A stretch of 64,000 bases of DNA from Phycisphaerales bacterium (GTDB taxonomy: Bacteria; Planctomycetota; Phycisphaerae; Phycisphaerales; UBA1924): positions 37,074-101,073 of the forward strand of contig DAIQNV010000002.1 in assembly GCA_036788215.1 (NCBI GenBank), written 5' to 3'. Positions 6,532 through 24,095 of the stretch are shown in pieces. A program made the position numbers and the translations under genes. Positions within the stretch are counted from its first letter, which is position 1. Each line of letters opens with the position of its first letter. The notes beneath the pieces are model-generated. The model saw only the letters and a program-made list of their open reading frames with translations. It was not told the origin of the DNA and ran no database searches.

Positions 6532-6682
6532 TCGTCGTCCCCCGACGACGGGGGAGGGGTGATCGCCCCGCCCCGCTCCGGTCCCGTCCCCTTCCACACG
6601 GACCGGTCCACCGAGGGCGCCATCAAGCGCCGGAGTGATGGCGTCGATACCCGACCGAGAACCCCCTCGGTCGGAGACCCCG

Positions 6683-8041
6683 ATGACCACCATCCCGCTC
6701 CCGCAGGCCTTCCCCGCCGCGTCCCCGATGCCCAAGCAGAAGGAGACGACGGTCGGGAACTACTTCGTCGCCAACTACCCGCCTTTCGGCCATTGGCGCA
6801 CCGACCGCATCAACGCCTTCCACGAGGCGCTCGACCACGACCCCTCGCCCGGGAACGAGCTGGGCGTGTACGCGCACATCCCGTTCTGCCGCAAGCGGTG
6901 CCACTTCTGCTATTTCCGGGTGTACACGGACAAGAACTCGTCGGAGATCCGGCGGTACCTCGACGCGATGGTCACCGAGCTCAAGGCGGTCGCAGGGCGG
7001 AGGTTCGTGGGCGGGCGCACGCCCAGCTTCGTCTACTTCGGGGGCGGCACGCCGAGCTATCTCTCGCCCGCGCAGTTCGACGATCTGACGCGGGAGATGA
7101 AGGCGGTCCTCCCGTGGGACGACGCCCGCGAGATCACGCTCGAAGCCGAGCCCGGCACGCTGAATCAGAAGAAGCTCGAGGCGATCCGCCGCATGGGCGT
7201 CACCCGCCTGAGCCTGGGCATCGAGCACTTCGATGACCGCCTGCTGGAACTGAACGGGCGGGCCCACCGGAGCAAGCAGACCCTCGCGGCCTACGAGGCG
7301 GCCAGGGGCGTGGGGTTCCCCGAGATCAACGTCGACCTCATCGCCGGCATGCTCGACGAGACCGACGAGGCGTGGCAGGACACGGTCCGCCGGACCATCG
7401 ATCTGGAGCCCGACACCGTCACCATCTACCAGATGGAGGTGCCCTACAACACGACGATCTACCAGCGCATGAAGGAGGAGGGCTCGCTCATCGCCCCGGT
7501 CGCCGACTGGGAGACCAAGCGTCGCTGGGTCAACGAGGCCTTCGCCGAGTTCGTCTCTGCGGGCTATACCGTGACGAGCGCCACCACCGTCGTGAAGGAC
7601 CCCGCGCGGAACCGCTTTGTGTATCGCAACGGGCTCTTCAACGGGTCGGACATCCTGTCCGTCGGCGTCTCCGCCTTCGGGCACATCAACGGCGTCAACT
7701 ACCAGAACGAGCACGATTTCAACCCCTACATCGACGCGGTGCACCAGCGCGGGGGCCTGCCCACCCATCGGGCGTACCCGCTCACGTTCGAGGAACGCTA
7801 CATCCGTGAGTTCGCGCTCCAGCTCAAGGCCGGGCGGGTGCTGGCCCTCCCGTTCGCGCAGAAGTTCGGCGAGAATCCGCGCCACCGCTTCGCCTCGGCG
7901 CTGCAGATCATCGATGGCATGGGCATGCTCGCCCGCGCGGATGACGAGGTCATCGAGGTCACCCGCGAGGGGCTGCTGCAGATCGACCGCCTGCTCTTCG
8001 AGTTCTTCCGCCCCGAGCACCGGCACGGGCGCTTCGCATGA
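6683..8041 (+). CDS. HemN-like radical SAM protein (coproporphyrinogen-III-oxidase-like / class C radical SAM family)
   Basis: HIPFCRKRCHFCYF CxxxCxxC cluster motif, YFGGGTPSYL motif, and HemN-like N-terminal NYPPFGHW. ATG at 6683 is preceded by GGAG; alternative starts at 6635 and 6638. The stop overlaps the next gene as ATGA. Confidence 0.85.
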   Translation: MTTIPLPQAFPAASPMPKQKETTVGNYFVANYPPFGHWRTDRINAFHEALDHDPSPGNELGVYAHIPFCRKRCHFCYFRVYTDKNSSEIRRYLDAMVTELKAVAGRRFVGGRTPSFVYFGGGTPSYLSPAQFDDLTREMKAVLPWDDAREITLEAEPGTLNQKKLEAIRRMGVTRLSLGIEHFDDRLLELNGRAHRSKQTLAAYEAARGVGFPEINVDLIAGMLDETDEAWQDTVRRTIDLEPDTVTIYQMEVPYNTTIYQRMKEEGSLIAPVADWETKRRWVNEAFAEFVSAGYTVTSATTVVKDPARNRFVYRNGLFNGSDILSVGVSAFGHINGVNYQNEHDFNPYIDAVHQRGGLPTHRAYPLTFEERYIREFALQLKAGRVLALPFAQKFGENPRHRFASALQIIDGMGMLARADDEVIEVTREGLLQIDRLLFEFFRPEHRHGRFA

Positions 8042-9597
8042 GCCCCGCCTCGCTCGAAGCCCGGGCCACGACCGGCCTCGCGACGCTCCCCACGGGCGCC
8101 GACTACATCGCCTCGCTCGACGACGACCGCGCCGTCTATCTCGACGGCGCCCGCGTGCGGGACATCGCCCATCACCCGGCGTTCCGCAACAGCGTCCGCT
8201 CCATCGCCCGCCTCTACGACGCCCTGCACGAGCCCGCGGGCGACGGGCTCACCGTGCCCTGCGACGCCGATCCGAGCCAACGCACCCACGCCTTCTTTCG
8301 CGCCGCACGCTGCGCCGACGACCTTCGGGACGCCCAGCGGGCGATCGCCGCCTGGGCCCGCCTCACCTATGGCTGGATGGGCCGCACGCCCGATTACAAG
8401 GCCTCCCTGACGACCACCCTCGGCGCCAACGCCGACTTCTTCGGCCCGTACGCGGACAACGCCCGTCGCTGGTACAGCCACGCCCAGGGGCACCTCCCCT
8501 TCCTGGGCCACGCGGTCGTCAACCCTCCGATCGACCGCCACCTGCCCGTCGAAGAGACCGGCGATACCGCGGTCCGCGTGGTCCGCGAGACCGACGCGGG
8601 GATCATCGTCTCGGGCGCGAAGGTCGTTGCCACCTCCGCCGCCATCGCCAATCACTGCTTCATCGGCCAGACACCCAACACCGCCTCCGACGACCCCGCC
8701 ATGGCGGTCTCGTTCATCGCCAGGCTCGACACGCCGGGCATCGCACTGATCTGCCGCAACTCCTACGAACTGGCCTCCCGCTCCGCCTTCGAGTCACCCC
8801 TCGCCTCCCGGTTCGACGAGAACGACGCGATCATCACCTTCAACGAGGCCCTCATCCCGTGGGAGGATGTCCTCATCCACCGCGATCCCGAGCGCGTCGC
8901 CCAGTTCTTCCCGCGCTCCGGCTTCGTCAACCAGTTCCTCTTCCATGGGTGTACCCGCCTGGCGGTCAAGCTCGACTTCATCGCGGGCCTGCTCGCCAAG
9001 GCGCTCCGTATCACCGGGGGCCACACCGCCCGGGGCAAGCGAGCCCTGCTGGGCGAGGTCATCGCCCACAGGCACGCCTTCTGGTCGCTCTCGAACGCCA
9101 TGGCCTCGAGCCCCGATCCCTGGGCCAACGGGCACGTGCTGCCGAATCACGACGCCGCGCTCGCCTACTGCGTCCTTGCGCCCGACGCCTACCCCCGCGT
9201 CCGCGCCATCGTGCAGCAGATCGTCGCCTCGGGACTCATCTACCTGCCCGCGTCCGCCGCGGATCTCGACCACCCGGAGACCGCCCCGCTGCTCGCCCGC
9301 TACGCCCGGGGCTCCGAGAACACCGACCACCGCGAACGCACGAAGATCATGAAACTCCTCTGGGACGCGGTCGGCACCGAGTTCGCAGGCCGCCACGAGC
9401 TCTACGAGCGGAACTACGCCGGGGGCTGGGAGTGCACCCGCCTCATGGTCGAGGCCTCCGCGAGGGGGCGCCGCAAACTCGACGCCATGGAAGCACTCGT
9501 CGACCGGTGCCTCGCGGACTACGACGAACAGGGCTGGACCACCGACACCTGGATTTCTCCGACATCGCCCGAAAGCATCCCCATCGACGCTGCCTGA
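8038..9597 (+). CDS. HpaB-family flavin-dependent monooxygenase (4-hydroxyphenylacetate 3-monooxygenase oxygenase component-like)
   Basis: 519 aa. YGWMGRTPDYKAS, VVRETDAGIIVSGAKVVATSAA and the C-terminal HpaB-type helical domain. ATGA overlap with the radical SAM gene and TGATG overlap with the next gene. Confidence 0.85.
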   Translation: MSPASLEARATTGLATLPTGADYIASLDDDRAVYLDGARVRDIAHHPAFRNSVRSIARLYDALHEPAGDGLTVPCDADPSQRTHAFFRAARCADDLRDAQRAIAAWARLTYGWMGRTPDYKASLTTTLGANADFFGPYADNARRWYSHAQGHLPFLGHAVVNPPIDRHLPVEETGDTAVRVVRETDAGIIVSGAKVVATSAAIANHCFIGQTPNTASDDPAMAVSFIARLDTPGIALICRNSYELASRSAFESPLASRFDENDAIITFNEALIPWEDVLIHRDPERVAQFFPRSGFVNQFLFHGCTRLAVKLDFIAGLLAKALRITGGHTARGKRALLGEVIAHRHAFWSLSNAMASSPDPWANGHVLPNHDAALAYCVLAPDAYPRVRAIVQQIVASGLIYLPASAADLDHPETAPLLARYARGSENTDHRERTKIMKLLWDAVGTEFAGRHELYERNYAGGWECTRLMVEASARGRRKLDAMEALVDRCLADYDEQGWTTDTWISPTSPESIPIDAA

Positions 9598-10232
9598 TGA
9601 ACCCCCACCACGCCCGCCTGCGCGACCGCCTCTACGACACCTTCCGGGGCCGCCCCACACCCCTGCTCTGCGCCGACGAGTACACCATCCCCGGCGCGTC
9701 CCTCTGGTCCGGGGCGCGTCTGTGGGTCAACGCGCTGCGGGTCCACGATCTCGGGCCGGGCGACCGCGTCCTGCTCGCGCTGCCCCGCACGCCCGCCTCG
9801 GTGATGGCGACGCTCGCCTGCTGGTGGGAGGGGCTCACCGTCTGCCCCGCCGACGCCTTCGACCCGGCCCAACTCGCCACGCTCGACGCTGCCCTCGCCC
9901 TCGCCGACGCCGACCACCCGAGCGTCCTCCGGCGGGCCCGCGACGAGCACCCCGCCCCGGGCCCGGTCACGCTCCGTCTTGCCCGCACGCCCCGCACGCC
10001 CGAGGTCGCTCTCCTCCTCCCCGACAGCGGGCCCGTTCCCTTCCAGACCATCGCCGATCTGGGCGCCCGCGCCGTCACGAGCATCGAGCCCTTCGAACTC
10101 CGCGAACCCTGGGACACCCACGACGGCTTGCTCGCGGACGATCGCGGGCTCTGGCCGATCCTCTTTGCGGGCGCCATCGTGCGGGTTGCCTACGCCGGTC
10201 GTCCGATCACGCCACTCGCCCGCGCCGCCTGA
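9597..10232 (+). CDS. Short (211 aa) protein resembling only the N-terminal part of an adenylate-forming (acyl/aryl-CoA ligase) enzyme, without a P-loop
   Basis: LGPGDRVLLALPRTPASVMATLACWWEGLTVCPAD resembles the substrate-side N-terminal segment of 4CL/acyl-CoA ligases. PEVALLLPDSGPVPF sits where the SGTTGxPKG motif is expected. The ORF stops after 211 codons and is start/stop-coupled to the HpaB-like gene. Confidence 0.5.
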   Translation: MNPHHARLRDRLYDTFRGRPTPLLCADEYTIPGASLWSGARLWVNALRVHDLGPGDRVLLALPRTPASVMATLACWWEGLTVCPADAFDPAQLATLDAALALADADHPSVLRRARDEHPAPGPVTLRLARTPRTPEVALLLPDSGPVPFQTIADLGARAVTSIEPFELREPWDTHDGLLADDRGLWPILFAGAIVRVAYAGRPITPLARAA

Positions 10233-10463
10233 GGGGGTATCCACCCGGCTCCGCTCCGGGGATCGTCTGCGCCAGACGATGAACTCCCTCGCCCCGAGCG
10301 TCCTCCCGCGACGGTGTCCTCCACTGCATCTCAAGCACCACCGGGGCTTCTCCGATTTCTCATCTGCACGCAAGGCCCGACGCCCGCCGACTCACGCGGG
10401 GCCGCGGCCGGGAGTCGGGTGCTGCACCCGGTGTTGTCCGTCCTCTCGAAAGGAAGCCAGATC

Positions 10464-10796
10464 ATGAACACCGAGACCGTCGAGAGCCTGGAGATGCAGC
10501 TCCGCTCTCTCTACGAGGAGCGCGAGTTCCTCGCCCAGAAGTATGGAGTCTCGTCCGCCGACGAAGTCGTCTCGATGGTCTCGAACCTCGAGGCCCAGCT
10601 CCACGACTTCTACCACAAGTACGGGAGCTTCGACAGCGACGACAATTCCGGCATCATCCTGGGCCGGCTCAAGGAGCTCAGCTCCGCGCTCGACCCCATG
10701 TACTCGCAGAAGAGTGTCACATTCACGTTTGAGAACAACCGCCCCGTCCTCCGCGCCGAGTGGACCGAGCAGCTGAACCAAGGAGACGCCCAGTGA
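10464..10796 (+). CDS. Hypothetical 110-aa acidic protein, translationally coupled to pyp
   Basis: ATG at 10464 is preceded by AGGAAG. Translation MNTETVESLEMQLRSLYEEREFLAQKYG... has a predicted helical N-terminus and good GC3 codon bias. Its stop at 10794-10796 overlaps the GTG at 10793 and lies 6 nt before the ATG at 10802 of pyp. Confidence 0.7.
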   Translation: MNTETVESLEMQLRSLYEEREFLAQKYGVSSADEVVSMVSNLEAQLHDFYHKYGSFDSDDNSGIILGRLKELSSALDPMYSQKSVTFTFENNRPVLRAEWTEQLNQGDAQ

Positions 10797-10801
10797 ACAG
10801 C

Positions 10802-11188
10802 ATGATGAGTGCCCCCGCCGGGACCTTTGTCCCGAACGAGCTCTTCCCGATGCTCGGGAACCTTTCCCGCAACGACGCCGATTCCTGCGACTTCGGGATC
10901 ATCCAGCTCGACGACTCGGGCAAGGTGATCATGGTCAACCGCTACCAGTCCGAACTCGGCGGCGTCCCCGTCTCCCAGTTCGAGAACCGCAACTGGTTCA
11001 CCCAGATCGCACCCTGCACCAACAACGGGCTGGTCTTCGGCATGTTCAAGAAGGGCGTCGCCGCGGGCAACATGAACACCGTGTTCCCCTACACCTTCAC
11101 CTTCAAGATGAAGCCCACCAACGTCAAGATCCACTTCTACCGCGACCAGAAGTCGGGCCGGAACTTCGCGTTCGTCGCCCGCGCCTGA
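10802..11188 (+). CDS. pyp: Photoactive yellow protein (PYP) homologue, stand-alone PAS photoreceptor
   Basis: 128 aa. Aligns without gaps to Halorhodospira halophila PYP from FG(A/I)IQLD through NFF..APC to the C-terminus: FGIIQLDDSGK..., NWFTQIAPC, GVAAGNMNTVFPYTFTFKMKPTNVKIHF, FAFVARA. Chromophore Cys is conserved at codon 72 (11015-11017). An alternative GTG start at 10793 sits 7 nt after AGGAG. Confidence 0.9.
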   Translation: MMSAPAGTFVPNELFPMLGNLSRNDADSCDFGIIQLDDSGKVIMVNRYQSELGGVPVSQFENRNWFTQIAPCTNNGLVFGMFKKGVAAGNMNTVFPYTFTFKMKPTNVKIHFYRDQKSGRNFAFVARA

Positions 11189-11228: not shown

Positions 11229-11267
11229 CGCCCCGCCCGGGCCCACGCCCAGGCGGGGCGTCTTTCT
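11229..11267 (+). terminator. Rho-independent terminator after pyp
   Basis: CGCCCCGCC...GGCGGGGCG stem (extendable, 6-nt loop) followed by TCTTTCT, located 40 nt after the pyp stop. Confidence 0.7.
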
Positions 11268-11324
11268 GCGCGCACCGGCACCGCCCCCCCGGTACCATCG
11301 GGCCTCCCCGAAGGAGAGTGCCGC

Positions 11325-13247
11325 GTGGTCCACAGTCGAGCCTGCGCCCTGCTCTGCGCGTGCGTGCTGGGCCCGCTCACCGCCGCGGCCGACCCGACCG
11401 CCACCCCGCCGGGACCGGAGACCGCCCGGGCCATCACGCCCGACCCCGCCCGCGATGGCTTCCGGTACCCGGTCTCCCGCGTCCGATTCAGCCTGCCCTA
11501 CGAGCACCAGGACGCGCCCGATCTCGGGTCGATCAGCGCGACCGTCGTCCCCCTGACGCCCACCCCCGAGGGCTGGATCGCCCCGCCCACGCCCGGCGCC
11601 CCCACCGTCGAGGTCGCTCTCGACCGTCCCCTCGACGCGTTCGAAGCCGCCCCCCCGGTCCTCTTCGGGAGCGCGATCGCTGCCATCACCCGACGGGTCC
11701 AGTCCGCCTTCGCGACGGACCCGGGACTCATCGGGCACCTCGTCATCCCCGACCCCGACCAGATCGATCCCGCCACCAGCGAGGATCTCCGCCCCGCGGC
11801 CGCGACCGATCTCACCGTCTCCATCTACCTCGCCACCGTCGCCGATACGCGCACGATCGGCTTCGGTCGCCGCCTGCCCGAGGACGCCCAGCCCATCAAC
11901 CACCCCGCCCACGCCCGCATCCTCCGCAACGCCCCGCTCGCGACCGGGGACCTGCTCGCCCGCCCGCCCATCGATCGCTTCGTCGCCCGCCTGAACCGCC
12001 ACCCGGGCCGGCGGGTCGAGACCGCGGTCGCGCCGACGGGCGAGCCCGGGCGGGTCTCGCTCGACTTCCTCGTGACCGAAGCCAAGCCCTGGACCGTCTA
12101 CGCCCAGGTCGCCAACACCGGCACCCGCTCGACCGACGAGATGCGCATGCTCTTCGGCGCCCGCCACACCCAGCTCACCGGGCGGGACGACGTCCTCACC
12201 GTCAACTACATCACCGCGGAGTTCGACGCCACGAACGCGGTCGCCGCCAGCTATGTCCGCCCGCTCGACGACCTGGGCCGGATCACGCTCACGATCAACG
12301 GCGCTTGGAATGAGTACACCGCGAGCGACATCGGGCTGGGCCTGGCTGCCCTGGAGGGCGAGGGCTACGACGCGGGCGCGGAACTGGCCATCGAGCTCGC
12401 CGAGATCGGCCGGGGCTTCCTCCACGCCTTCGCGGGCCTGCAGTACCGCCGGATCAGCATCGACAACCTCCTCGCGGGCGTCGAGGGCGAGACCGACCTC
12501 CTGCTCGCCAGCGCCGGCGTGCGATTCGCCAGGGCCGGCCTCACGAGCGATACCACACTCTCCGGTTCCATCGAGGCGAATCTCCCCGACATCGCCGGCA
12601 CCGACGAGTCCGACCTCGTCTTCCTTGGGCGATCCGACGCGGACACCTCCTTCGCGGTCCTCCGGTTCGAAGCGGCCCACAGCCTTTTCCTTGAGCCCCT
12701 TTTCGACCCTGATGGCTATGCGGGCCGGCGCGGGCCCGACGCCATGACCCTCGCCCACCGCCTCACCCTCTCCGCCCGAGGGCAGTACACGCCGGAGCGC
12801 CGCCTCGTCGCCAACCTGCAGGCCATCGCGGGCGGGTTCTTCACCGTCCGGGGCTACGAGGAGGCGGTCGCTTCGGGCGACTCGGCGCTCATCGCGTCGA
12901 TCGAGTACCGGTATAGCCTCGCCGCCGCCCTGCCCCCGGCGGAGCGGGCGGGCTCCCTGGCGGGGCGACCCTTCCGCACCGCCCGGCAGGAGCCCTACGG
13001 CACCGCGGACTGGGACATCGGCCTCCGCGTCTTCGCCGATCTCGCGGTCGTGGACAACAACGACCGGGCCCCGGGCGAGTCCGACGAGACGCTGATGGGC
13101 ATCGGCGTGGGTGTTGACGCCCGGCTCTGGACCAACCTGACGGCCCGGGCCGACCTGGGCGTGGCACTCTCGGACGCTCGATCGCAGACGAACCCGGCGA
13201 ATCAGGGCGATACCAGGCTGCATTTCGCCGTCATCGTGTCATACTGA
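11325..13247 (+). CDS. ShlB/FhaC/HecB-family two-partner-secretion outer-membrane transporter (TpsB)
   Basis: GTG start 6 nt after AAGGAGAG. Signal peptide, POTRA-like N-terminal region, and C-terminal beta-barrel with FFTVRGYEEAVASGDSALIASIEYRY. Ends in an aromatic residue (VIVSY). Confidence 0.85.
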   Translation: MVHSRACALLCACVLGPLTAAADPTATPPGPETARAITPDPARDGFRYPVSRVRFSLPYEHQDAPDLGSISATVVPLTPTPEGWIAPPTPGAPTVEVALDRPLDAFEAAPPVLFGSAIAAITRRVQSAFATDPGLIGHLVIPDPDQIDPATSEDLRPAAATDLTVSIYLATVADTRTIGFGRRLPEDAQPINHPAHARILRNAPLATGDLLARPPIDRFVARLNRHPGRRVETAVAPTGEPGRVSLDFLVTEAKPWTVYAQVANTGTRSTDEMRMLFGARHTQLTGRDDVLTVNYITAEFDATNAVAASYVRPLDDLGRITLTINGAWNEYTASDIGLGLAALEGEGYDAGAELAIELAEIGRGFLHAFAGLQYRRISIDNLLAGVEGETDLLLASAGVRFARAGLTSDTTLSGSIEANLPDIAGTDESDLVFLGRSDADTSFAVLRFEAAHSLFLEPLFDPDGYAGRRGPDAMTLAHRLTLSARGQYTPERRLVANLQAIAGGFFTVRGYEEAVASGDSALIASIEYRYSLAAALPPAERAGSLAGRPFRTARQEPYGTADWDIGLRVFADLAVVDNNDRAPGESDETLMGIGVGVDARLWTNLTARADLGVALSDARSQTNPANQGDTRLHFAVIVSY

Positions 13248-13261
13248 GGGCGAACCAAACC

Positions 13262-16200
13262 ATGAAGACACCGCCCGCAAACCTGATGCTCGCCGGAACG
13301 GCACTCCTGCTGTCGCTCCCCACCCTCCCCGCGGTCGCCGGCCCCGATGGCAGCACCGTCGCCCGGGGCTCCGCCTCCATCGCCCGGGACGGCGCCGTCA
13401 CCACGATCACCGCGAGCGACGGGGCGATCCTGAACCACCAGTCGTTCCACATCGCCCCGCACGAGGCGGTGCGGTTCCTGCAGCCCCACGCGGGCGCCCG
13501 CGTCCTCAACCGCGTCGTCGGACCGGACGCCTCGCTGATCGAGGGCAGCCTCTTCGCCAACGGGCGGGTCTACCTCGTCAACCCCAACGGCATCTTCATG
13601 GGCCCGGACGCGATCGTCCGTACCTCGGCCTTCATCGCGGCGGGCGCCCACATGGCCGATGCCGACTTCCTTGCCGGCCTCGACCGCTTCACCGACGCAC
13701 GGGGCGCCGTGGTCAACCAGGGCCTGATCGAGGCTGGAGAGGTCATGCTCTTCGGGCGGACCGTCGCCAACCTCGGCACGATCAACGCCCCCAACGGGAC
13801 CGTCGCGCTGCTCGCGGGGGAGAACCTCTACCTGAAGCCGGGCGATGGCGGGCCGCTGGTGCAGCTCGACGCGTCCGGGCCGCCCGAACGCCCCGCGGTG
13901 CACGCCGGGCCGACACTCGCCGCGGGCGACATCTACTCCATGGCGGTCTGGCAGGGCGGGCGCACGACCGCCCGGGCGGTGCGGGCGCAGAGCGCCGATG
14001 TCCGCCCTGTGGTCAACACGGGCGACATCCGCGCTCAGAGCGACGACGGGCGGGGCGGGGAGATCCTGCTCGCGGGCCCCGCTGTCCGCGTGTGGGATGG
14101 CACGCTCGACGCCTCGGGGCCCATGGGCGGGGGCACGGTGCAGATCGGGGCCCGCCCCAACGGCGCCGCCCCGCTGAGCGCCACGGTCCACACCGAGGCG
14201 GGCGTCACCGTCCGGGCCGACGCGACCGGGCGGGGCGACGCCGGCTCGATCGAGCTGTGGTCCAGCCACCTGACCCTCGCCGCAGGGGAGCTTTCCGCCC
14301 GTGGTGGCCCCCTCGGGGGCGACGGGGGATTCATCGAAACCTCCAGCATGGGCGGGCTCCTTGCGGACGCGGGGGTCGATATCGGGGCGAGCAACGGTCG
14401 GGCGGGGCTCTACCTGATCGACCCGGTGGACGTGCTGATCACAACACGTGCGCTCGCGCTCAGCAAGCTTGGCCAGTTGACGAACCCCACCGGCGAGCCC
14501 GTCCTGAGCCTCGTTCTGGTCAACCGGGTGACGCAGGCACTCCTGACGGGCAATGTCGAGATCAATACCGAGTTCTCCCGCGGCGCGGGCAACGGGACGA
14601 TCACGGTCGATGTCGAGGACCCGGACCGTTTCGGCGCAGAAGCGGTGAGCTACGCCCTGCCCGGCCCGCGCACGCTGACACTCCGCGCGCACCGCGATAT
14701 CCGCATCCTGAGCCCGCTCGCACCCGACGGAACGAGTGCGCCCCTGAACCTCGTGCTCGCGGCGAACAGCACCTTCCCGAACGACCCCGACCCCGACCCG
14801 GCGACGGGAGACGTCCGCCTCTCCGCGCCCATCCGCCTCTCCGGGGGCGGCCTGACCTCGTCGGGCGTCAACTTCAACGGGACGCTTGGCCTGATCACCG
14901 CCGGCTGGGTCGACCTGCAGCACTCGGGAACCGTCACGCTGGGATCGGATGTCACGCTCACCGGCATCGGACCCGGGGGCAACGCGCTCCGCGCGACCGG
15001 CACGAGCTTCACACTGAACGCCAATGTGCCGCTGACGACCTCCGCCGGAGGCGGGATCAGCCTCTCGTTCTCCGACACGGTCACCATCGGGAACGGGGGG
15101 CTCCTTGACCTGGGCAACGCCTTCAGCATCACGGGGGCCCAGTCCGTCTCCCTCGGGCGTGACGTGCGCACGACGGGCGACCCGATCACCATCGAGGGTG
15201 CGGTGACGCTGACCGGCGGGGACCGGCTCTTGCGGAGCAACTTCAACACCCTCGGCGCACCCATAGCGCTCGGAGCGATCGAGCGGGCCGCGACGGACCC
15301 GGGCGGGCTCACCGTGCGGTCGGGCAACGGCGCCATCGTTCTGGGCGACGCCGGCCAGGCGAACCCGCTCGCGTTCATGACGGTCGAAGGCGCGTCCGTC
15401 TCCGTCGGCAGCGCCAGGACCACCGGTCCCCAGACCTACACCGTGCAGAACGCCCAACTGCGCGGAGGCACACTCGAGACCGCGAGCGCAAACCTCGCGA
15501 TCTTCGGCGCGTCGCGCCTGCAGGGCAGCACGACGCTGCGCACCTCGGGCGGGCCGGGCGGGGGCGCGGTGACCCTCGGGTCTGTCGACTCCGACGGCGC
15601 GGGAAGCCGCGCCTTCACGATCGACGCGGGCTCCGCCCCCGTTGGACTGACCGGCGACATCGGCGGGCTCGCGGCCCCGCAGTCGCTGACGATCAACGCG
15701 GGACCGATCTCCGCAGCGTCGCTCGTGACCCTGGGCCCGCAGAGCATCACCGCGACGGAGACCACGCTGCGAGGCGGGATCGTCGCCTCGCTCGTGGGGG
15801 GCTCGATCACCTTCATCGGGCAGGTCCGACTGAATAACGGTGTGACCGCCTTCACCGCGGGCAACGCCGGCGACGACCTGAACTTCGTCGGCCCCATCGT
15901 CGCCCCGGGCGTCGGGCTCGCGCTCAACGCCGGACAGGCGGGCACCGTGACCTTCCTGAGCGGCGCCGGGCTCGTGGGCGGGGAGCTGGGGCGCCTCGAT
16001 GTCTCGCTCGCCGGGCTAACGCAGCTCGCGGGCGATATCCGCACGCTCGGGGGCGTCCGCATCGGCTCCCCGCTCCGGATCGTGGGCGGCTCATCCATCG
16101 TGGACGCCCGGGGCGGCACCACCGTCATCGCGGGCGACGTGACCGGCGCCGCGGGCCTCGCCCCGACGCTGACTTTCGCCTGGGAGGGCACCGCCGGCGT

Positions 16201-17428
16201 GCAGGTCATCGGCAGCACCTCCTTGCTCCGCACGCCCCTGACGATCCTGGGCAACGTCGGCTCCACAGGCGGGGACAGCGAGACCTTCGCCCTGGGCTCC
16301 GTCATCTTCGGCTCGGACACGCCGGGCGGAGCGATCCCCACGACCGCCTCCGTCGTCTTCTCGAGCGTCGAGCCCGGCGCCAACGGTCTCTACGACGCGG
16401 GGGCGATCGACCTGGGGCGGGCCTACACGATCCGCGCCCTCGACGCGATCACCTTCGGCGCTTCGCGGAAGCTCCTGGTCTTCGGCTCCGCCGAACTCCG
16501 CGCGGGCGCGCCCGGGCGGAGCGGAGCGATGCTGCTGGGCGACGTGACAACCTTCGGAGACCTCGCCCTCCGCTCCTTAGGCCCCGCCGGCACCATGGCC
16601 TTCCGCTCCCGCCCGCCCGGCTTCGTCGAGTCACCCGCCACCGAGATCGACCGCCTCGCCGGCGGGGGAGGCGTGCTGACCCCCGACACCGGCGTCGACG
16701 TCGTCTCAGGGGGCAACCTCACCTGGGAGATCACCAGCGGGACGGGTGCCCCGACCCAGGGGGGCGGACCGGTCGTCGTGCTCGTCGCGGCCAATCCCGG
16801 GCTCTCCCCCGCGGGCAATGTGCTCTCCTTCGCATCACCCATGAGCACAGCGCTCTTCGCGGGCCAGGGCCCGGCCACGACCGGACGCCTGTTCTCGTAC
16901 GACCTGTCCGCCGCCGCGATCGGTGCGTCCGGCGGCGGGCCGGGTTCCAACGGAGGCGGAACGGGCGGCAATGGCGGGTCCGGCGGAGGCACGCCCGGTG
17001 GCGGCACTCCCGACACCGGTGTCACGACAACCGTCGACCCCGCGGAGGCGCGGGCCCTCCTCGAATCCGAGGGCGTCTTCACGGAGCTCGCCTCACCTAC
17101 CCGCGTCCTGAGCGACGCGGACGCCCTCGCGTCCCTCGGGATCATCCTGATCGACGACGCCACCGCCGGACGCGGCGCCGCCACAGGCGGCGCGATCGTC
17201 CTCGTCGACCAGGCACCCTTCGGAGGAGTCGACCCCGAAGAGCCCTACCGGGTCTCCTCGCGCCGCGTGAGCCGGACCGCGGCGACCGCAGCCGCGGAGC
17301 GTTTCCGCGAAGTCGTGGCCGGGACGGGCGACCTGCAATCCCTCGCAAATGCGCTCGCGGCCCTCGGGCTGACCGACGGTGAACGTGCGCTCGCGCTCGA
17401 TCGGGCGGGGCGCGCCCTGGGCGGGTAG
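13262..17428 (+). CDS. Filamentous-haemagglutinin-type TpsA exoprotein (1388 aa) with N-terminal TPS domain
   Basis: Signal peptide, then the TPS secretion domain: ITASDGAILNHQSFHIAPHEAVRFLQP...RVLNRVVG...GSLFANGRVYLVNPNGIFMG. This is followed by long beta-helical G/T/L/A-rich repeats, a Gly-rich linker and an unassigned C-terminal region. Confidence 0.9.
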   Translation: MKTPPANLMLAGTALLLSLPTLPAVAGPDGSTVARGSASIARDGAVTTITASDGAILNHQSFHIAPHEAVRFLQPHAGARVLNRVVGPDASLIEGSLFANGRVYLVNPNGIFMGPDAIVRTSAFIAAGAHMADADFLAGLDRFTDARGAVVNQGLIEAGEVMLFGRTVANLGTINAPNGTVALLAGENLYLKPGDGGPLVQLDASGPPERPAVHAGPTLAAGDIYSMAVWQGGRTTARAVRAQSADVRPVVNTGDIRAQSDDGRGGEILLAGPAVRVWDGTLDASGPMGGGTVQIGARPNGAAPLSATVHTEAGVTVRADATGRGDAGSIELWSSHLTLAAGELSARGGPLGGDGGFIETSSMGGLLADAGVDIGASNGRAGLYLIDPVDVLITTRALALSKLGQLTNPTGEPVLSLVLVNRVTQALLTGNVEINTEFSRGAGNGTITVDVEDPDRFGAEAVSYALPGPRTLTLRAHRDIRILSPLAPDGTSAPLNLVLAANSTFPNDPDPDPATGDVRLSAPIRLSGGGLTSSGVNFNGTLGLITAGWVDLQHSGTVTLGSDVTLTGIGPGGNALRATGTSFTLNANVPLTTSAGGGISLSFSDTVTIGNGGLLDLGNAFSITGAQSVSLGRDVRTTGDPITIEGAVTLTGGDRLLRSNFNTLGAPIALGAIERAATDPGGLTVRSGNGAIVLGDAGQANPLAFMTVEGASVSVGSARTTGPQTYTVQNAQLRGGTLETASANLAIFGASRLQGSTTLRTSGGPGGGAVTLGSVDSDGAGSRAFTIDAGSAPVGLTGDIGGLAAPQSLTINAGPISAASLVTLGPQSITATETTLRGGIVASLVGGSITFIGQVRLNNGVTAFTAGNAGDDLNFVGPIVAPGVGLALNAGQAGTVTFLSGAGLVGGELGRLDVSLAGLTQLAGDIRTLGGVRIGSPLRIVGGSSIVDARGGTTVIAGDVTGAAGLAPTLTFAWEGTAGVQVIGSTSLLRTPLTILGNVGSTGGDSETFALGSVIFGSDTPGGAIPTTASVVFSSVEPGANGLYDAGAIDLGRAYTIRALDAITFGASRKLLVFGSAELRAGAPGRSGAMLLGDVTTFGDLALRSLGPAGTMAFRSRPPGFVESPATEIDRLAGGGGVLTPDTGVDVVSGGNLTWEITSGTGAPTQGGGPVVVLVAANPGLSPAGNVLSFASPMSTALFAGQGPATTGRLFSYDLSAAAIGASGGGPGSNGGGTGGNGGSGGGTPGGGTPDTGVTTTVDPAEARALLESEGVFTELASPTRVLSDADALASLGIILIDDATAGRGAATGGAIVLVDQAPFGGVDPEEPYRVSSRRVSRTAATAAAERFREVVAGTGDLQSLANALAALGLTDGERALALDRAGRALGG

Positions 17429-22514: not shown

Positions 22515-24095
22515 TCACGAGACGCCGCCAACGCCGAACCGTTTCCGGAGCTTCGCGGCGCTGGCGGTGATCTCCACGCGCTCCTCGTTCTTGATGCGGT
22601 CGGCGTTCTTCAGCATCATCGCCATGCGGTTATTGCCCTTGAACCGCTCCCCGTGGCGGAACAGGAAGTCCCAGAAGAACACGTTGAACGGGCACGCGTC
22701 GTCGCCGGAGCGGGCGTCGAGCTTGTACCGGCAGTTCTCGCAGTAGTTCGACATGCGGGAGATGTACTTGCCCGACGCGGCGTAGGGCTTCGTGCCCACG
22801 ACCCCGTGGTCGGCGTGCTGGGACATGCCGATGGTGTTCGGGTTGCTCGCCCAGTCGACCGCATCAACGAACATCGCCAGGTACCAGTCGGCGACCCGGC
22901 GCGGATGCACGCCCGCGAGCATCGCGAAGTTACCCATCACCATCAGGCGCGGGATGTGGTGGGCGAAGCCATGATCGAGCACGGACCGCACGCAGTCCCG
23001 CATGCACGCCATGTCGGTATCCGCGGTCCAGTAGAACCCGGGCAGGTCACCCTGCTGCCCGAGCCCGTTGCGGTTCGGGTAGTCATCCCCCTGCGTCCAG
23101 TACACGCCCCGGATGAACTCCCGCCACCCCAGCCACTGGCGCACGAAGCCCTCGACCGCGTTCAGCGGAGCCTTTCCTGCGTGGTACGCCCCGACCGCCT
23201 TCTCGACGCAGTCCCGCGGATCGAGCAACTTCAGATTGCCCGAGGAACTGAGCAGCGAGTGGTAAAGGAAGGGCTGCTCGGTCCACATCGCGTCCTCGTA
23301 CTTCCCGAAGAGACGCAGGCGATGCTCGACAAAGTCATCCAGGGCCCGCCCCGCCTGGTCCCGCGTCACGGGCCAGCGGAAGCCATCGAGCGACCCATGG
23401 CTGTCCGGGTACCGCGAGGCAACGAGGTCGAGGACCTCCTTCGTGATGTCCGTGAGACGGGGCGTGTAGGGCTTCGGCGGGTTCGGCGTGGTCTTGAACG
23501 CGTCCCGGTTGTCCTTGTCAAAGTTCCACCCGCCACCGACCGGCGTCTTCCCGTCCTCCTCCATCAGCACGCCGAACCGCTTGCGCTGCTCGCGGTAGAA
23601 GAACTCCATCGTGAGCTGCTTTCGGCCCTTTGCCCACGTCTCGAACCGCTCGAGAGGCGTAAAGAAGTGCGCATCCTCGTGCACACGCACCGGGATGCCG
23701 AACTCGCCCTCCCAGGCCTGCACCATCTTGAGAACGCGCCAGTCGCCCGGATGAACGCAGTGGATCTCCTCGGGCCGCAGCTTCCCGACCGCTCGCCTGA
23801 CCTCGCTGTCGAAACGCTGCGTGTTGTAGGGGTCGTTCGCCGTGACATACCGGACGCGGTGCCCCGTCTCCGCGAGGTCGACCGCGAAGTGCCGCATCGC
23901 CGCGAAGAAGAGCGCGGTCCGCTGCCTGTGCGAGGGCACGACGGACTGCTCCTCGTCCGTCTCCATCATCAGCACGGCGTCCTTCGCCTTGTCGATCTCC
24001 GCGAGGGGCCCGAACGACCCGTCGAGCTGATCTCCGAAGACGACCACCAGTCGCCGGGCCTTCCGCGTGTCGTTCAGGGGTGGGAAAGCGGCCAT
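22515..24095 (-). CDS. Fe-S cluster-containing bacterial cryptochrome/(6-4) photolyase family protein (FeS-BCP, PhrB/CryB-like)
   Basis: COG3046-type N-terminus RRLVVVFGDQLD...AVLMMETDEE...HRQRTALFFAAMRHFA. Four-Cys pattern C...CENC-x12-C (NYCENCRYKLDARSGDDACPFN) characteristic of the 4Fe-4S photolyases. Confidence 0.9.
   Translation of the reverse strand: MAAFPPLNDTRKARRLVVVFGDQLDGSFGPLAEIDKAKDAVLMMETDEEQSVVPSHRQRTALFFAAMRHFAVDLAETGHRVRYVTANDPYNTQRFDSEVRRAVGKLRPEEIHCVHPGDWRVLKMVQAWEGEFGIPVRVHEDAHFFTPLERFETWAKGRKQLTMEFFYREQRKRFGVLMEEDGKTPVGGGWNFDKDNRDAFKTTPNPPKPYTPRLTDITKEVLDLVASRYPDSHGSLDGFRWPVTRDQAGRALDDFVEHRLRLFGKYEDAMWTEQPFLYHSLLSSSGNLKLLDPRDCVEKAVGAYHAGKAPLNAVEGFVRQWLGWREFIRGVYWTQGDDYPNRNGLGQQGDLPGFYWTADTDMACMRDCVRSVLDHGFAHHIPRLMVMGNFAMLAGVHPRRVADWYLAMFVDAVDWASNPNTIGMSQHADHGVVGTKPYAASGKYISRMSNYCENCRYKLDARSGDDACPFNVFFWDFLFRHGERFKGNNRMAMMLKNADRIKNEERVEITASAAKLRKRFGVGGVS

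What the first reader, a model, noticed from the sequence alone, without database searches (positions are those of the whole stretch)
10464..10796. Unknown 110-aa protein translationally coupled to pyp: candidate PYP partner
This ORF has its own AGGAAG ribosome-binding site, strong GC3 bias and a helical acidic N-terminus. Its stop (10794-10796) overlaps or abuts the pyp start region: the GTG at 10793 or the ATG at 10802, with AGGAG embedded in its last codons. The pair is closed by a strong terminator at 11229-11267, which makes a two-gene unit. The downstream signalling partner of stand-alone PYPs has never been firmly identified, so a strictly coupled small protein is an obvious candidate for a partner, chaperone or chromophore-loading factor.
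Basis: partly seen in the sequence, partly recalled or inferred. Interest (0 to 1): 0.7.

Follow-up and report, generated by a model that had tools for sequence, protein, structure and literature searches.

The report
Small hairpin protein always paired with PYP
A small acidic helical protein is encoded with its stop codon overlapping the start of a blue-light sensor gene (PYP), and its relatives sit next to, or are fused to, PYP in almost every related locus examined, which makes it a strong but still untested candidate for the sensor's long-sought binding partner.

Summary
Window 10464-10796 is a real, conserved 110-aa gene under purifying selection. Its TGA overlaps the GTG start of a divergent PYP gene, and a Shine-Dalgarno sequence lies in its last codons.

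- 11/11 genome loci holding a homologue have pyp immediately downstream. All 12 junctions, window included, are ATGA or GTGA overlaps.
- Searching from the PYP side, 74 of 75 informative metagenome loci carry a family member just upstream on the same strand.
- The N-terminal helical hairpin is a repeat unit. It occurs 1-5 times in stand-alone proteins beside pyp, and 3-14 times in long proteins ending in a Cys-less PYP-fold domain. The two such fusion genes whose neighbours were examined lie upstream of true pyp genes.
- The family is acidic and its PYPs are basic.
- It has no Pfam, NCBIfam or PDB relative.
- It is absent from two recent PYP neighbourhood surveys.
- It is not homologous to the inferred orthologue of the one known PYP-binding protein, Rhodobacter PBP.

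Best reading: a dedicated, stoichiometric PYP-binding adaptor. Binding itself was not tested here, and the output of the system is unknown.

The parts
10450..10456 (+). Shine-Dalgarno-like AAGGAAG for ORF110
   Evidence: Read directly from the sequence, 7 nt before the ATG at 10464. GAAAGGA is shared at this position by the closest loci.
10464..10796 (+). ORF110: a 110-aa acidic protein, founding member here of a PYP-associated hairpin family
   Evidence: GC3 is 0.90. There are 35 homologues and 363 profile hits. dN/dS is 0.12. No Pfam, NCBIfam or PDB match was found.
10470..10622 (+). Helical hairpin (residues 3-53), the repeat unit of the family. Consensus: LExQLxxLYxERExLxxxxGVSsaeEvvxMVxxLExQLxDfY
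   Evidence: The AF2 model gives helices 3-27 and 32-53 with pLDDT 80-89. This segment is the one that matches 1-14 times in other proteins.
10647..10766 (+). Third helix (residues 62-76) and beta-hairpin (residues 82-101). Present only in the roughly 105-113-aa and 166-aa members
   Evidence: AF2 secondary structure, pLDDT about 60-67. L76, D77, V85, P94, V95, A98 and W100 are invariant. This part is absent from the 47-84-aa single-hairpin members.
10780..10786 (+). Shine-Dalgarno AAGGAGA for pyp, embedded in the Q-G-D codons of ORF110
   Evidence: Read directly from the sequence. (A/C)GGAGA is conserved at the same place in all 12 junctions.
10793..11188 (+). pyp: a divergent photoactive yellow protein of 131 aa from the GTG (128 aa from the ATG at 10802). 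The GTGA start overlaps the ORF110 stop
   Evidence: BLASTP against Hh-PYP gives 35% identity, E 1e-28. TIGR02373 scores 88.8 bits. Cys69 is kept while Y42 is V and E46 is Q. An xTGA overlap is present in 12/12 loci. The 131-aa product held from NCBI matches the GTG start.
11229..11269 (+). Probable intrinsic terminator closing the pair
   Evidence: A GC-rich stem followed by UCUUUCU; z = -3.25. The simple scan did not call it.
9597..10232 (+). Truncated p-coumarate-CoA-ligase-like gene (211 aa). A recurrent neighbour of the pair; its functional status is uncertain
   Evidence: Weak AMP-binding N-terminal match. It is homologous to the N-terminal half of the full-length pCL next to pyp in L012 and L021. 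A copy is present in 9/11 genome loci, on either side of the pair.
6635..9597 (+). Radical-SAM (HemN/ChuW-like) and HpaB-like monooxygenase genes, coupled to each other and to the pCL-like gene. Possibly chromophore-related; not part of the conserved core
   Evidence: Pfam and NCBIfam matches. ATGA overlap at 8038-8041 and TGATG at 9595-9599. The two genes are nearby in 3/11 genome and 4/80 metagenome loci.

Best explanation
ORF110 encodes the cognate binding partner (adaptor) of the PYP encoded immediately after it.

Shown here:
- The two genes are translationally coupled through a GTGA/ATGA overlap, with the pyp ribosome-binding site inside the last ORF110 codons.
- The pairing is nearly invariant across a whole PYP clade (Phycisphaerales, Tepidisphaerales, Bacteroidota/Kapabacteria and others).
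- The N-terminal 50-residue helical hairpin is the conserved, repeatable unit.
- That unit is naturally fused to PYP-fold domains and to a second PYP-linked family, X.
- The hairpin proteins are strongly acidic, while their PYPs are basic, unlike Halorhodospira-type PYPs.

Inferred, not shown:
- The overlap gives roughly fixed-ratio synthesis of the two proteins.
- The hairpin docks on the PYP fold, probably on a surface whose exposure changes in the light-activated state.
- The hairpin protein thereby couples PYP to other components: X where it is present, and an unknown target in this genome.
- The extra helix and beta-hairpin of the 110-aa form are an accessory contact or oligomerisation element.
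For: Synteny from the ORF110 side. 11/11 genome loci have pyp immediately downstream.

Junction. 12/12 loci have a start codon (ATG in 7, GTG in 5) overlapping the TGA by 4 nt, with GGAGA upstream.

Synteny from the PYP side. Five divergent loci all carry a hairpin gene beside pyp. These are a 105-aa member in Tepidisphaerales, a 61-aa member in Kapabacteria/Bacteroidota, a 47-56-aa member downstream of pyp, a 166-aa member and a 58-aa member. In the metagenome scan 74/80 loci have one upstream on the same strand within 470 nt. Five of the six negatives lack enough upstream DNA to judge.

Specificity. No hairpin gene is found near gammaproteobacterial pyp-pcl-tal or Rhodobacter-type pyp.

Fusions. 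49 of the best 150 profile hits are 3-14 hairpins followed by a C-terminal PYP-like domain. For P0153 the model's best 38 PDB matches are all PYP, with TM 0.82-0.86. The two such fusion genes whose neighbourhoods were examined, and whose own domain lacks Cys69 (P0038, P0036), lie directly upstream of genuine Cys69 PYP genes.

Family X. X-hairpin fusions exist, one of them inside a pyp-pCL operon.

Charge. The ORF110 family is acidic in 35/35 members (median -12). The partner PYP clade is net positive in 85/90 (median +3.2). Hh-like PYPs have a median of -1.4.

Selection. Both genes are under purifying selection: dN/dS 0.12 for ORF110 and 0.16 for pyp.

Precedent. A small protein encoded immediately upstream of Rc-pyp (PBP) binds light-activated PYP (locus).
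Against: - No binding was measured or predicted.
- The model of a natural fusion has pTM 0.46. The hairpins are therefore not confidently packed against the PYP-fold domain.
- The hairpin proteins have no recognisable output domain, so the 'relay' step has no identified target in this window. X, MCP, GGDEF and kinase genes are all absent near the pair.
- In many relatives the gene sits in a hairpin-pyp-pCL-TAL operon. That arrangement also fits a maturation role.
- Nearly all fused PYP-like domains lack Cys69 (48/49). The fusion evidence therefore concerns the PYP fold, not necessarily the light-sensing form.
- Every source is a MAG or a metagenome, so no phenotype is available.
Confidence: 0.55

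Rival explanations
1. Scaffold or localisation protein. The hairpin array is a variable-length acidic rod that tethers or clusters PYP at a cellular structure or oligomerises it. It does not relay a conformational signal.
For: - Repeat number varies from 1 to 14, as in rod-like or spacer proteins.
- The fusion model is elongated, with low pTM and well-predicted individual hairpins.
- One giant fusion lies near gvpG and arsA-like genes. The Rhodobacter-type PYP sits in a gas-vesicle cluster.
Against: - The commonest forms have only one or two hairpins (59-188 aa), too short for a rod.
- Gas-vesicle or other structural genes are absent near the window pair.
- There is no membrane or targeting segment.
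Confidence: 0.15
2. Photocycle modulator. ORF110 binds PYP but acts on the receptor itself, tuning its absorption, pKa or dark-recovery rate, as FRP does for the orange carotenoid protein. It does not pass the signal on.
For: - It is small, helical, has no output domain and is made in a fixed ratio with PYP.
- PBP alters the Rc-PYP spectrum and stabilises a long-lived state.
- The window PYP has lost both canonical chromophore hydrogen-bond donors, Y42V and E46Q. It might need an external contribution.
Against: - The hairpin is equally conserved beside PYPs with the canonical Y42/E46/C69 triad.
- It is fused to Cys-less domains that have no photocycle.
- Fusions to X suggest a connecting role.
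Confidence: 0.12
3. Holo-PYP maturation factor. ORF110 is a chaperone that holds apo-PYP or presents it to p-coumaroyl-CoA for attachment to Cys69.
For: - In about 30 of 80 loci the gene order is hairpin-pyp-pCL, and TAL is also present in 28 of them.
- In the window the nearest neighbour is a pCL-like gene.
- Translational coupling suits a co-translational chaperone.
Against: - 48/49 fused PYP-like domains lack the attachment cysteine.
- Halorhodospira-type and Rhodobacter-type pyp-pcl-tal loci have no such gene.
- TAL plus pCL is described as the route to holo-PYP (PMC12826048).
- Tandem repeats are unusual for a dedicated chaperone.
Confidence: 0.1
4. No functional link. ORF110 is an unrelated small gene that happens to be inherited next to pyp.
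For: Nothing positive. All the evidence is genomic, and no interaction has been shown.
Against: - Adjacency persists at 42-74% PYP identity, across several phyla, while the other neighbours change.
- The 4-nt overlap is conserved.
- There are independent domain fusions to the PYP fold.
Confidence: 0.03

Closest known systems
PYP-binding protein (PBP, RCAP_rcc01067) of Rhodobacter capsulatus
   Same: PBP is a small protein (142 aa), with no known domain in its inferred orthologue, encoded next to a stand-alone pyp. In the Rhodobacter-type locus L022 a 142-aa gene ends 23 nt before pyp on the same strand. PBP binds light-activated PYP and is the only biochemically supported partner of a single-domain PYP. 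Its PYPs are basic, like those of the window clade.
   Different: There is no detectable homology: hhalign of the ORF110 profile against the 142-aa protein gives probability 0.1%. No hairpin motif is found in that locus. The genes do not overlap. PBP lies in a gas-vesicle cluster. Note that the identification of the L022 protein as PBP is my inference, from its length, its position and a PYP 98% identical to the Rhodobacter PYP sequence I recalled from memory.
Fluorescence recovery protein (FRP) of the orange carotenoid protein system. Comparison from general knowledge, not tested beyond a fold search
   Same: FRP is a small, all-helical protein of about 110 aa, encoded beside a soluble photoreceptor gene. 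It acts by binding the receptor's light state.
   Different: The receptor is unrelated. The Foldseek search of the ORF110 model against the PDB returned no significant hit of any kind (best E 0.45). ORF110 has a beta-hairpin and a repeatable hairpin unit.
Classical pyp-pcl-tal operon of Halorhodospira-type PYPs
   Same: Many hairpin loci continue as pyp-pCL-TAL. The window keeps a pCL-like remnant.
   Different: The classical operon has no gene of this family upstream. The window lacks TAL and a full-length pCL within about 15 kb.
Helices flanking PAS/LOV sensor cores (N-terminal cap of PYP, J-alpha of LOV2, coiled-coil linkers). A mechanistic analogy from general knowledge
   Same: These are helical elements that pack on a PAS core and are released or re-oriented on activation. 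In the natural fusions the hairpins sit N-terminal to the PYP fold.
   Different: Here the helical element is a separate polypeptide. No docking has been shown, and the PYP keeps its own N-terminal cap.

Membership tests
Photoactive yellow protein (downstream gene, 10793-11188) | Sequence and fold similarity to PYP across the whole domain | tested here: met
   35% identity over 119 aa to Hh-PYP without gaps, E 1e-28. TIGR02373 is the only NCBIfam hit, E 2.8e-25.
Photoactive yellow protein (downstream gene, 10793-11188) | NCBIfam equivalog cut-off for TIGR02373 (143.05 bits) | tested here: not met
   The score is 88.8 bits. Xing et al. note that this model covers only about 20% of PYP homologues (PMC9664959).
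Photoactive yellow protein (downstream gene, 10793-11188) | Cys69 for thioester attachment of the chromophore | tested here: met
   The APCT motif aligns with Hh Cys69. This position is invariant in the clade alignment A4.
Photoactive yellow protein (downstream gene, 10793-11188) | Tyr42 and Glu46 as hydrogen-bond donors to the chromophore | tested here: not met
   Val is at position 42 and Gln at 46. Tyr is at 45 and Trp at 62. Most clade members keep Y42/E46 (66 sequences).
Photoactive yellow protein (downstream gene, 10793-11188) | Binds p-coumaric acid and shows a photocycle | not testable with these tools
   This needs expression and spectroscopy.
Rhodobacter PBP (PYP-binding protein) | Sequence homology to RCAP_rcc01067 | tested here: not met
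   hhalign of A1 against the inferred PBP orthologue gives probability 0.1%, E 0.5.
Rhodobacter PBP (PYP-binding protein) | Encoded adjacent to a stand-alone pyp | tested here: met
   In the window the two genes overlap by 4 nt. In the Rhodobacter-type locus the gap is 23 nt.
Rhodobacter PBP (PYP-binding protein) | Light-dependent complex with PYP | not testable with these tools
PYP-associated hairpin family (defined here, alignment A1) | At least one copy of the roughly 50-residue hairpin LExQLxxLY...GVS...LExQLxDLY | tested here: met
   The window protein is the query. The six-frame profile search scores its reading frame at E 1e-52. Q12, L13, L16, Y17, R20, G28, L42, E43, Q45, L46, D48 and Y50 are invariant.
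PYP-associated hairpin family (defined here, alignment A1) | Gene adjacent to pyp, or protein fused to a PYP-fold domain | tested here: met
   12/12 junctions. 74/75 informative metagenome loci. 49 fusion proteins.
p-Coumarate-CoA ligase (upstream gene, 9597-10232) | Full-length ANL adenylating enzyme (about 400-500 aa) with an intact P-loop | tested here: not met
   The protein is 211 aa. It matches only Pfam AMP-binding positions 36-81 and the first 182-210 residues of the neighbouring full-length pCLs. Reading the translation, I see no canonical T/S-G-x-x-G-x-P-K motif.

The most novel reading that the evidence does not exclude
The hairpin is an undescribed protein-protein interaction domain dedicated to the PYP fold. 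ORF110-type proteins would then be the signalling partners of an entire clade of stand-alone PYPs. They would bind the light-activated receptor and hand the signal to family X or to other targets in a partner-switching scheme. That would give the PYP field its first widely distributed, sequence-definable downstream component, and a natural light-switchable heterodimer.
Probability: 0.35. Interest if true: 0.9.

Novelty: new variant of a known kind. Interest (0 to 1): 0.78.

Why it matters
PYP has been a textbook photoreceptor for about 40 years, yet papers from 2022 to 2026 still say that its signalling partner is unidentified. The one biochemical candidate, PBP, comes from Rhodobacter capsulatus, and its authors found no similar protein in Halorhodospira halophila.

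This finding defines a protein family and repeat domain that the two domain-based surveys do not mention. The family is linked to one large PYP clade by three independent kinds of genomic evidence: gene order, translational coupling and domain fusion. The partner question therefore becomes directly testable with two small soluble proteins that can be co-expressed in E. coli.

If binding is light-dependent, the pair would also be a compact new optogenetic heterodimer. It further points to a second unknown family, X, and to an unusual PYP active site (V42/Q46) that may bind a different chromophore or tune it differently.

Tried and rejected
- Domain libraries. Pfam and NCBIfam scans of ORF110, and of all 35 family members, gave only sub-threshold coiled-coil noise.
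- Solved structures. A profile search of PDB sequences and a Foldseek search of the AF2 model gave nothing significant.
- Heterodimer modelling.
- Natural fusion as a proxy. The P0153 model confirms the PYP fold of the C-terminal domain. Its pTM of 0.46 says nothing reliable about hairpin-PYP packing, and the tool returns no contact map.
- Homology to Rhodobacter PBP was tested and rejected.
- Chemoreceptor link. MCP genes flank three of the first divergent loci, but they appear in only 2/80 metagenome loci and not in the window. I dropped this as a general explanation.
- RNA elements. I looked for a conserved RNA or leader upstream of ORF110. There was no Rfam hit and no conservation beyond the closest relatives.
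- DNA-binding helix-turn-helix. The GVSxxE turn resembles one superficially, but the helices are acidic and the protein has pI 4.4. I rejected this by inspection only.
- rSAM/HpaB and PYP type. These genes are near 5 of 8 V42/Q46/W62 loci, but also near two Y42/E46 loci. This remains unresolved.

Full report
**1. What is in the window**

Positions 10464-10796 hold a 110-aa ORF on the + strand. AAGGAAG lies 7 nt before its ATG. Its codon-position GC profile (0.59/0.34/0.90) is that of the neighbouring genes, and unlike the flat profile of the 231-nt spacer upstream.

The stop TGA (10794-10796) overlaps a GTG at 10793. AAGGAGA lies 6 nt before that GTG, inside the last ORF110 codons. ATG codons follow at 10802 and 10805.

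The downstream gene is a PYP homologue:
- It is 35% identical to Halorhodospira PYP over 119 ungapped residues, E 1e-28.
- It scores 88.8 bits against TIGR02373, below the 143 cut-off.
- Products matching both calls are held from NCBI: 110 aa for ORF110 and 131 aa for PYP, the latter being the GTG start.

A GC-rich hairpin with a U-rich tail follows at about 11229-11269 (z = -3.25). The simple scanner did not call it.

Upstream on the same strand lie three genes joined by overlapping stop and start codons:
- a HemN/ChuW-like radical-SAM gene (6635-8041);
- an HpaB-like monooxygenase (8038-9597);
- a 211-aa remnant of an AMP-binding enzyme (9597-10232).

**2. ORF110 is a real, conserved gene of unknown family**

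- A word-indexed search found 35 homologues of 107-113 aa at 49-100% identity. All named sources are Planctomycetota or Phycisphaerales MAGs, and none has a Pfam domain.
- dN/dS against the closest relative is 0.12.
- AF2 with the family alignment gives a helical hairpin (3-27, 32-53; pLDDT 80-89), a third helix (62-76) and a beta-hairpin (82-101) at lower confidence.
- Pfam, NCBIfam, PDB sequence profiles and Foldseek gave nothing significant.
- The protein is strongly acidic: net charge -10, pI 4.45.

**3.

*From the ORF110 side.* A scan of one genome per species returned 11 loci. In all 11 a PYP gene follows immediately. In all 12 junctions, window included, a start codon (ATG in 7, GTG in 5) overlaps the TGA stop by 4 nt, and a GGAGA motif sits in the preceding Q/N-G-D/E codons.

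*From the PYP side.* Five more distant PYPs (47-57% identity) were traced to their contigs. Each has a family member beside it:

| Locus | Hairpin protein | Position relative to pyp |
|---|---|---|
| L012 (Tepidisphaerales) | 105-aa full-length homologue | upstream |
| L014 (Kapabacteria/Bacteroidota) | 61-aa single hairpin | upstream |
| L016 | 47-56-aa single hairpin | downstream |
| L020 | 166-aa double hairpin | upstream |
| L021 | 58-aa single hairpin | upstream |

*Metagenome scan.* A scan with the PYP clade alignment gave 80 loci at 42-74% identity.
- 74 have a profile hit upstream on the same strand within 470 nt.
- Five of the six negatives have less than 470 nt of upstream DNA.
- Only one (L107) is a true negative.

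*Specificity.* No hairpin gene lies near a gammaproteobacterial pyp-pcl-tal locus or a Rhodobacter-type pyp. The association is therefore specific to one clade.

**4. The hairpin is a repeat unit that is fused to PYP-fold domains**

An exhaustive profile search of 1.84 billion representatives gave 363 hits. The matching segment is profile positions 4-52, which occur 1-14 times per protein.

- Forty-nine of the best 150 hits are long acidic proteins (326-1290 aa) with 3-14 hairpins and a C-terminal PYP-like domain.
- A model of one of them (P0153) has that domain at pLDDT 96-98. Its best 38 PDB matches are all PYP, with TM 0.82-0.86.
- In 48 of the 49, Cys69 is replaced by Ser, Gly, Ala or another residue. 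These domains probably do not carry a covalent chromophore.
- Two such fusion genes were traced. Each lies directly upstream of a genuine PYP gene with Cys69: L024, followed by a fused pCL-TAL, and L026, followed by two Salinibacter-like PYPs.
- Upstream of the metagenomic PYPs, the stand-alone hairpin proteins range from one hairpin (59-84 aa), through the 112-aa ORF110 type, to 2-5 hairpins (150-324 aa).

**5. A wider module**

About 30 of the 80 metagenome loci continue as hairpin-pyp-pCL, and 28 also contain TAL. MCP genes are rare, at 2/80.

A second unknown family, X, accompanies the pair:
- It is about 135 aa with the motif YIELKSRWIALNTKINYQTFRTG, and has no Pfam or PDB relative.
- It is next to the pair in 7/11 genome and 57/80 metagenome loci.
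- It is itself fused to two hairpins in proteins such as P0099, which sits in a pyp-pCL-[X-hairpin] operon.
- X is absent from this 64-kb window and from the nearest relatives.

**6. Charge complementarity**

- All 35 ORF110-family proteins are acidic (median net charge -12).
- 85 of 90 PYPs of the associated clade are net positive (median +3.2, pI 9.1).
- Halorhodospira-like PYPs have a median of -1.4.

**7. Interpretation**

Four observations point to a physical, stoichiometric partnership between the hairpin and the PYP fold:
- gene order conserved over wide sequence divergence while the other neighbours change;
- a conserved 4-nt overlap with an embedded ribosome-binding site;
- independent fusions of the hairpin to the PYP fold and to X;
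- opposite net charges.

I commit to an adaptor role: the hairpin protein binds PYP and links it to other components. Confidence is 0.55.

The binding, its dependence on light and the output are all inferred. The only structural proxy available (pTM 0.46 for a natural fusion) neither supports nor excludes packing.

Rival readings:
- a scaffold or localisation rod (0.15);
- a photocycle modulator in the manner of FRP or PBP (0.12);
- a holo-PYP maturation factor (0.10), weakened by the Cys-less fusions and by the absence of the gene from classical pyp-pcl-tal operons;
- coincidence (0.03).

**8. Comparison with what is known**

The closest functional precedent is PBP of Rhodobacter capsulatus. 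It is a 142-aa protein encoded next to pyp, and it forms UV-induced, blue-light-reversible complexes with Rc-PYP (bioRxiv 10.1101/2021.06.01.446672).

I recovered a Rhodobacter-type locus in a gas-vesicle cluster. A 142-aa gene ends 23 nt before pyp there. The ORF110 profile does not match it (hhalign probability 0.1%). The two are therefore analogous in position but unrelated. The identification of that protein as PBP is my inference, from its length, its position and a PYP 98% identical to the sequence I recalled from memory.

Two systematic surveys of PYP neighbourhoods, operons and multidomain proteins list GGDEF/EAL, kinases, MCP, PHY, V4R, REC, BLUF, pCL and TAL. Neither mentions this family, a repeat or a coiled coil (PMC9664959 and PMC12826048). 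Both rely on known-domain annotation. Further text searches found no description. I rate the finding a new variant of a known kind: a new, unrelated family in the role of a photoreceptor-adjacent partner protein.

**9. Limits**

- All sequences come from MAGs or metagenomes.
- There are no transcript, protein or interaction data.
- Profile hits to short helical repeats could in principle include false positives. However, their strict position and strand relative to pyp (74/75) argue against that.

Noticed in passing
window 10793-11188: The PYP keeps Cys69 but has Val at position 42 and Gln at 46, with Tyr at 45 and Trp at 62. This signature is shared by L001, L002, L003, L007, L028, L031 and L032. 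Xing et al. 2022 state that they never found Tyr42 and Glu46 both substituted in a Cys69-containing PYP. This subclade is therefore an exception and may have unusual spectral tuning or a different chromophore.
   Followed up: partly
window 9597-10232: This is a 211-aa gene homologous only to the N-terminal half of the full-length p-coumarate-CoA ligases that follow pyp in other loci. Short versions of about 190-230 aa recur beside the pair in 9/11 genome loci. The gene is probably not an active ligase on its own.
   Followed up: partly
window 6635-9597: A HemN/ChuW-like radical-SAM gene and an HpaB-like flavin monooxygenase gene overlap by ATGA and abut the pCL-like gene (TGATG). The same two genes lie near the pair in L001, L002, L007, L028, L032, L041 and L043. 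No TAL is found within about 15 kb. This may be an alternative or modified (for example hydroxylated) chromophore pathway.
   Followed up: partly
L004:1450-1866, L007:6156-6542, L012:305-664 (-), L016:3359-3742 (-), L024:490-876 (-): A second uncharacterised family, X, accompanies hairpin-pyp pairs. It is about 135 aa, has the motif YIELKSRWIALNTKINYQTFRTG and has no Pfam or PDB relative. It is present in 7/11 genome and 57/80 metagenome loci, and is fused to two hairpins in P0087, P0099 and P0169. It is absent from this window.
   Followed up: partly
L024:1272-3587 and L026:1773-5645: Giant acidic proteins (771 and 1290 aa) carry 10-14 hairpin repeats and a C-terminal PYP-fold domain lacking Cys69. 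They are encoded directly upstream of genuine PYP genes. In L024 a fused pCL-TAL gene of 998 aa follows.
   Followed up: partly
L007:6597-7392, also L028 and L032: Some loci carry a second, diverged hairpin-PYP pair, about 33% and 37% identical to the first. It lies a few hundred bases downstream, with the X gene between the two pairs.
   Followed up: partly
L022:4549-5375: This is a Rhodobacter-type pyp inside a gas-vesicle gene cluster, with TAL and pCL nearby. A 142-aa gene, the inferred PBP, ends 23 nt before pyp. A gvpG gene also lies near the giant hairpin fusion in L026. This hints at a recurring PYP-buoyancy link.
   Followed up: partly
window 11325-17428: A two-partner secretion pair lies just after the pyp terminator: a ShlB/FhaC-type TpsB transporter and a 1388-aa TpsA with a TPS domain. 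The TpsB gene is conserved in L001.
   Followed up: no
window 22515-24095 (-): A DPRP (cryptochrome/photolyase-related) gene lies 11 kb from pyp. A DPRP gene also lies next to the only Cys69-containing hairpin-PYP fusion, P0117, in L027.
   Followed up: no
window 10320-10463: The last 140 nt or so before ORF110 are nearly identical to L001. This includes a small terminator-like hairpin at 10342-10354. The stretch is not conserved in more distant loci and has no Rfam match.
   Followed up: partly
protein P0053 (430 aa, from the representative library): This database 'protein' looks chimeric. It has an ORF110-like N-terminus, a stretch where only a 23-residue fragment matches PYP and which appears to be out-of-frame pyp, and a C-terminal part resembling family X. 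It is probably a frameshifted or mis-called ORF, not a natural fusion.
   Followed up: no
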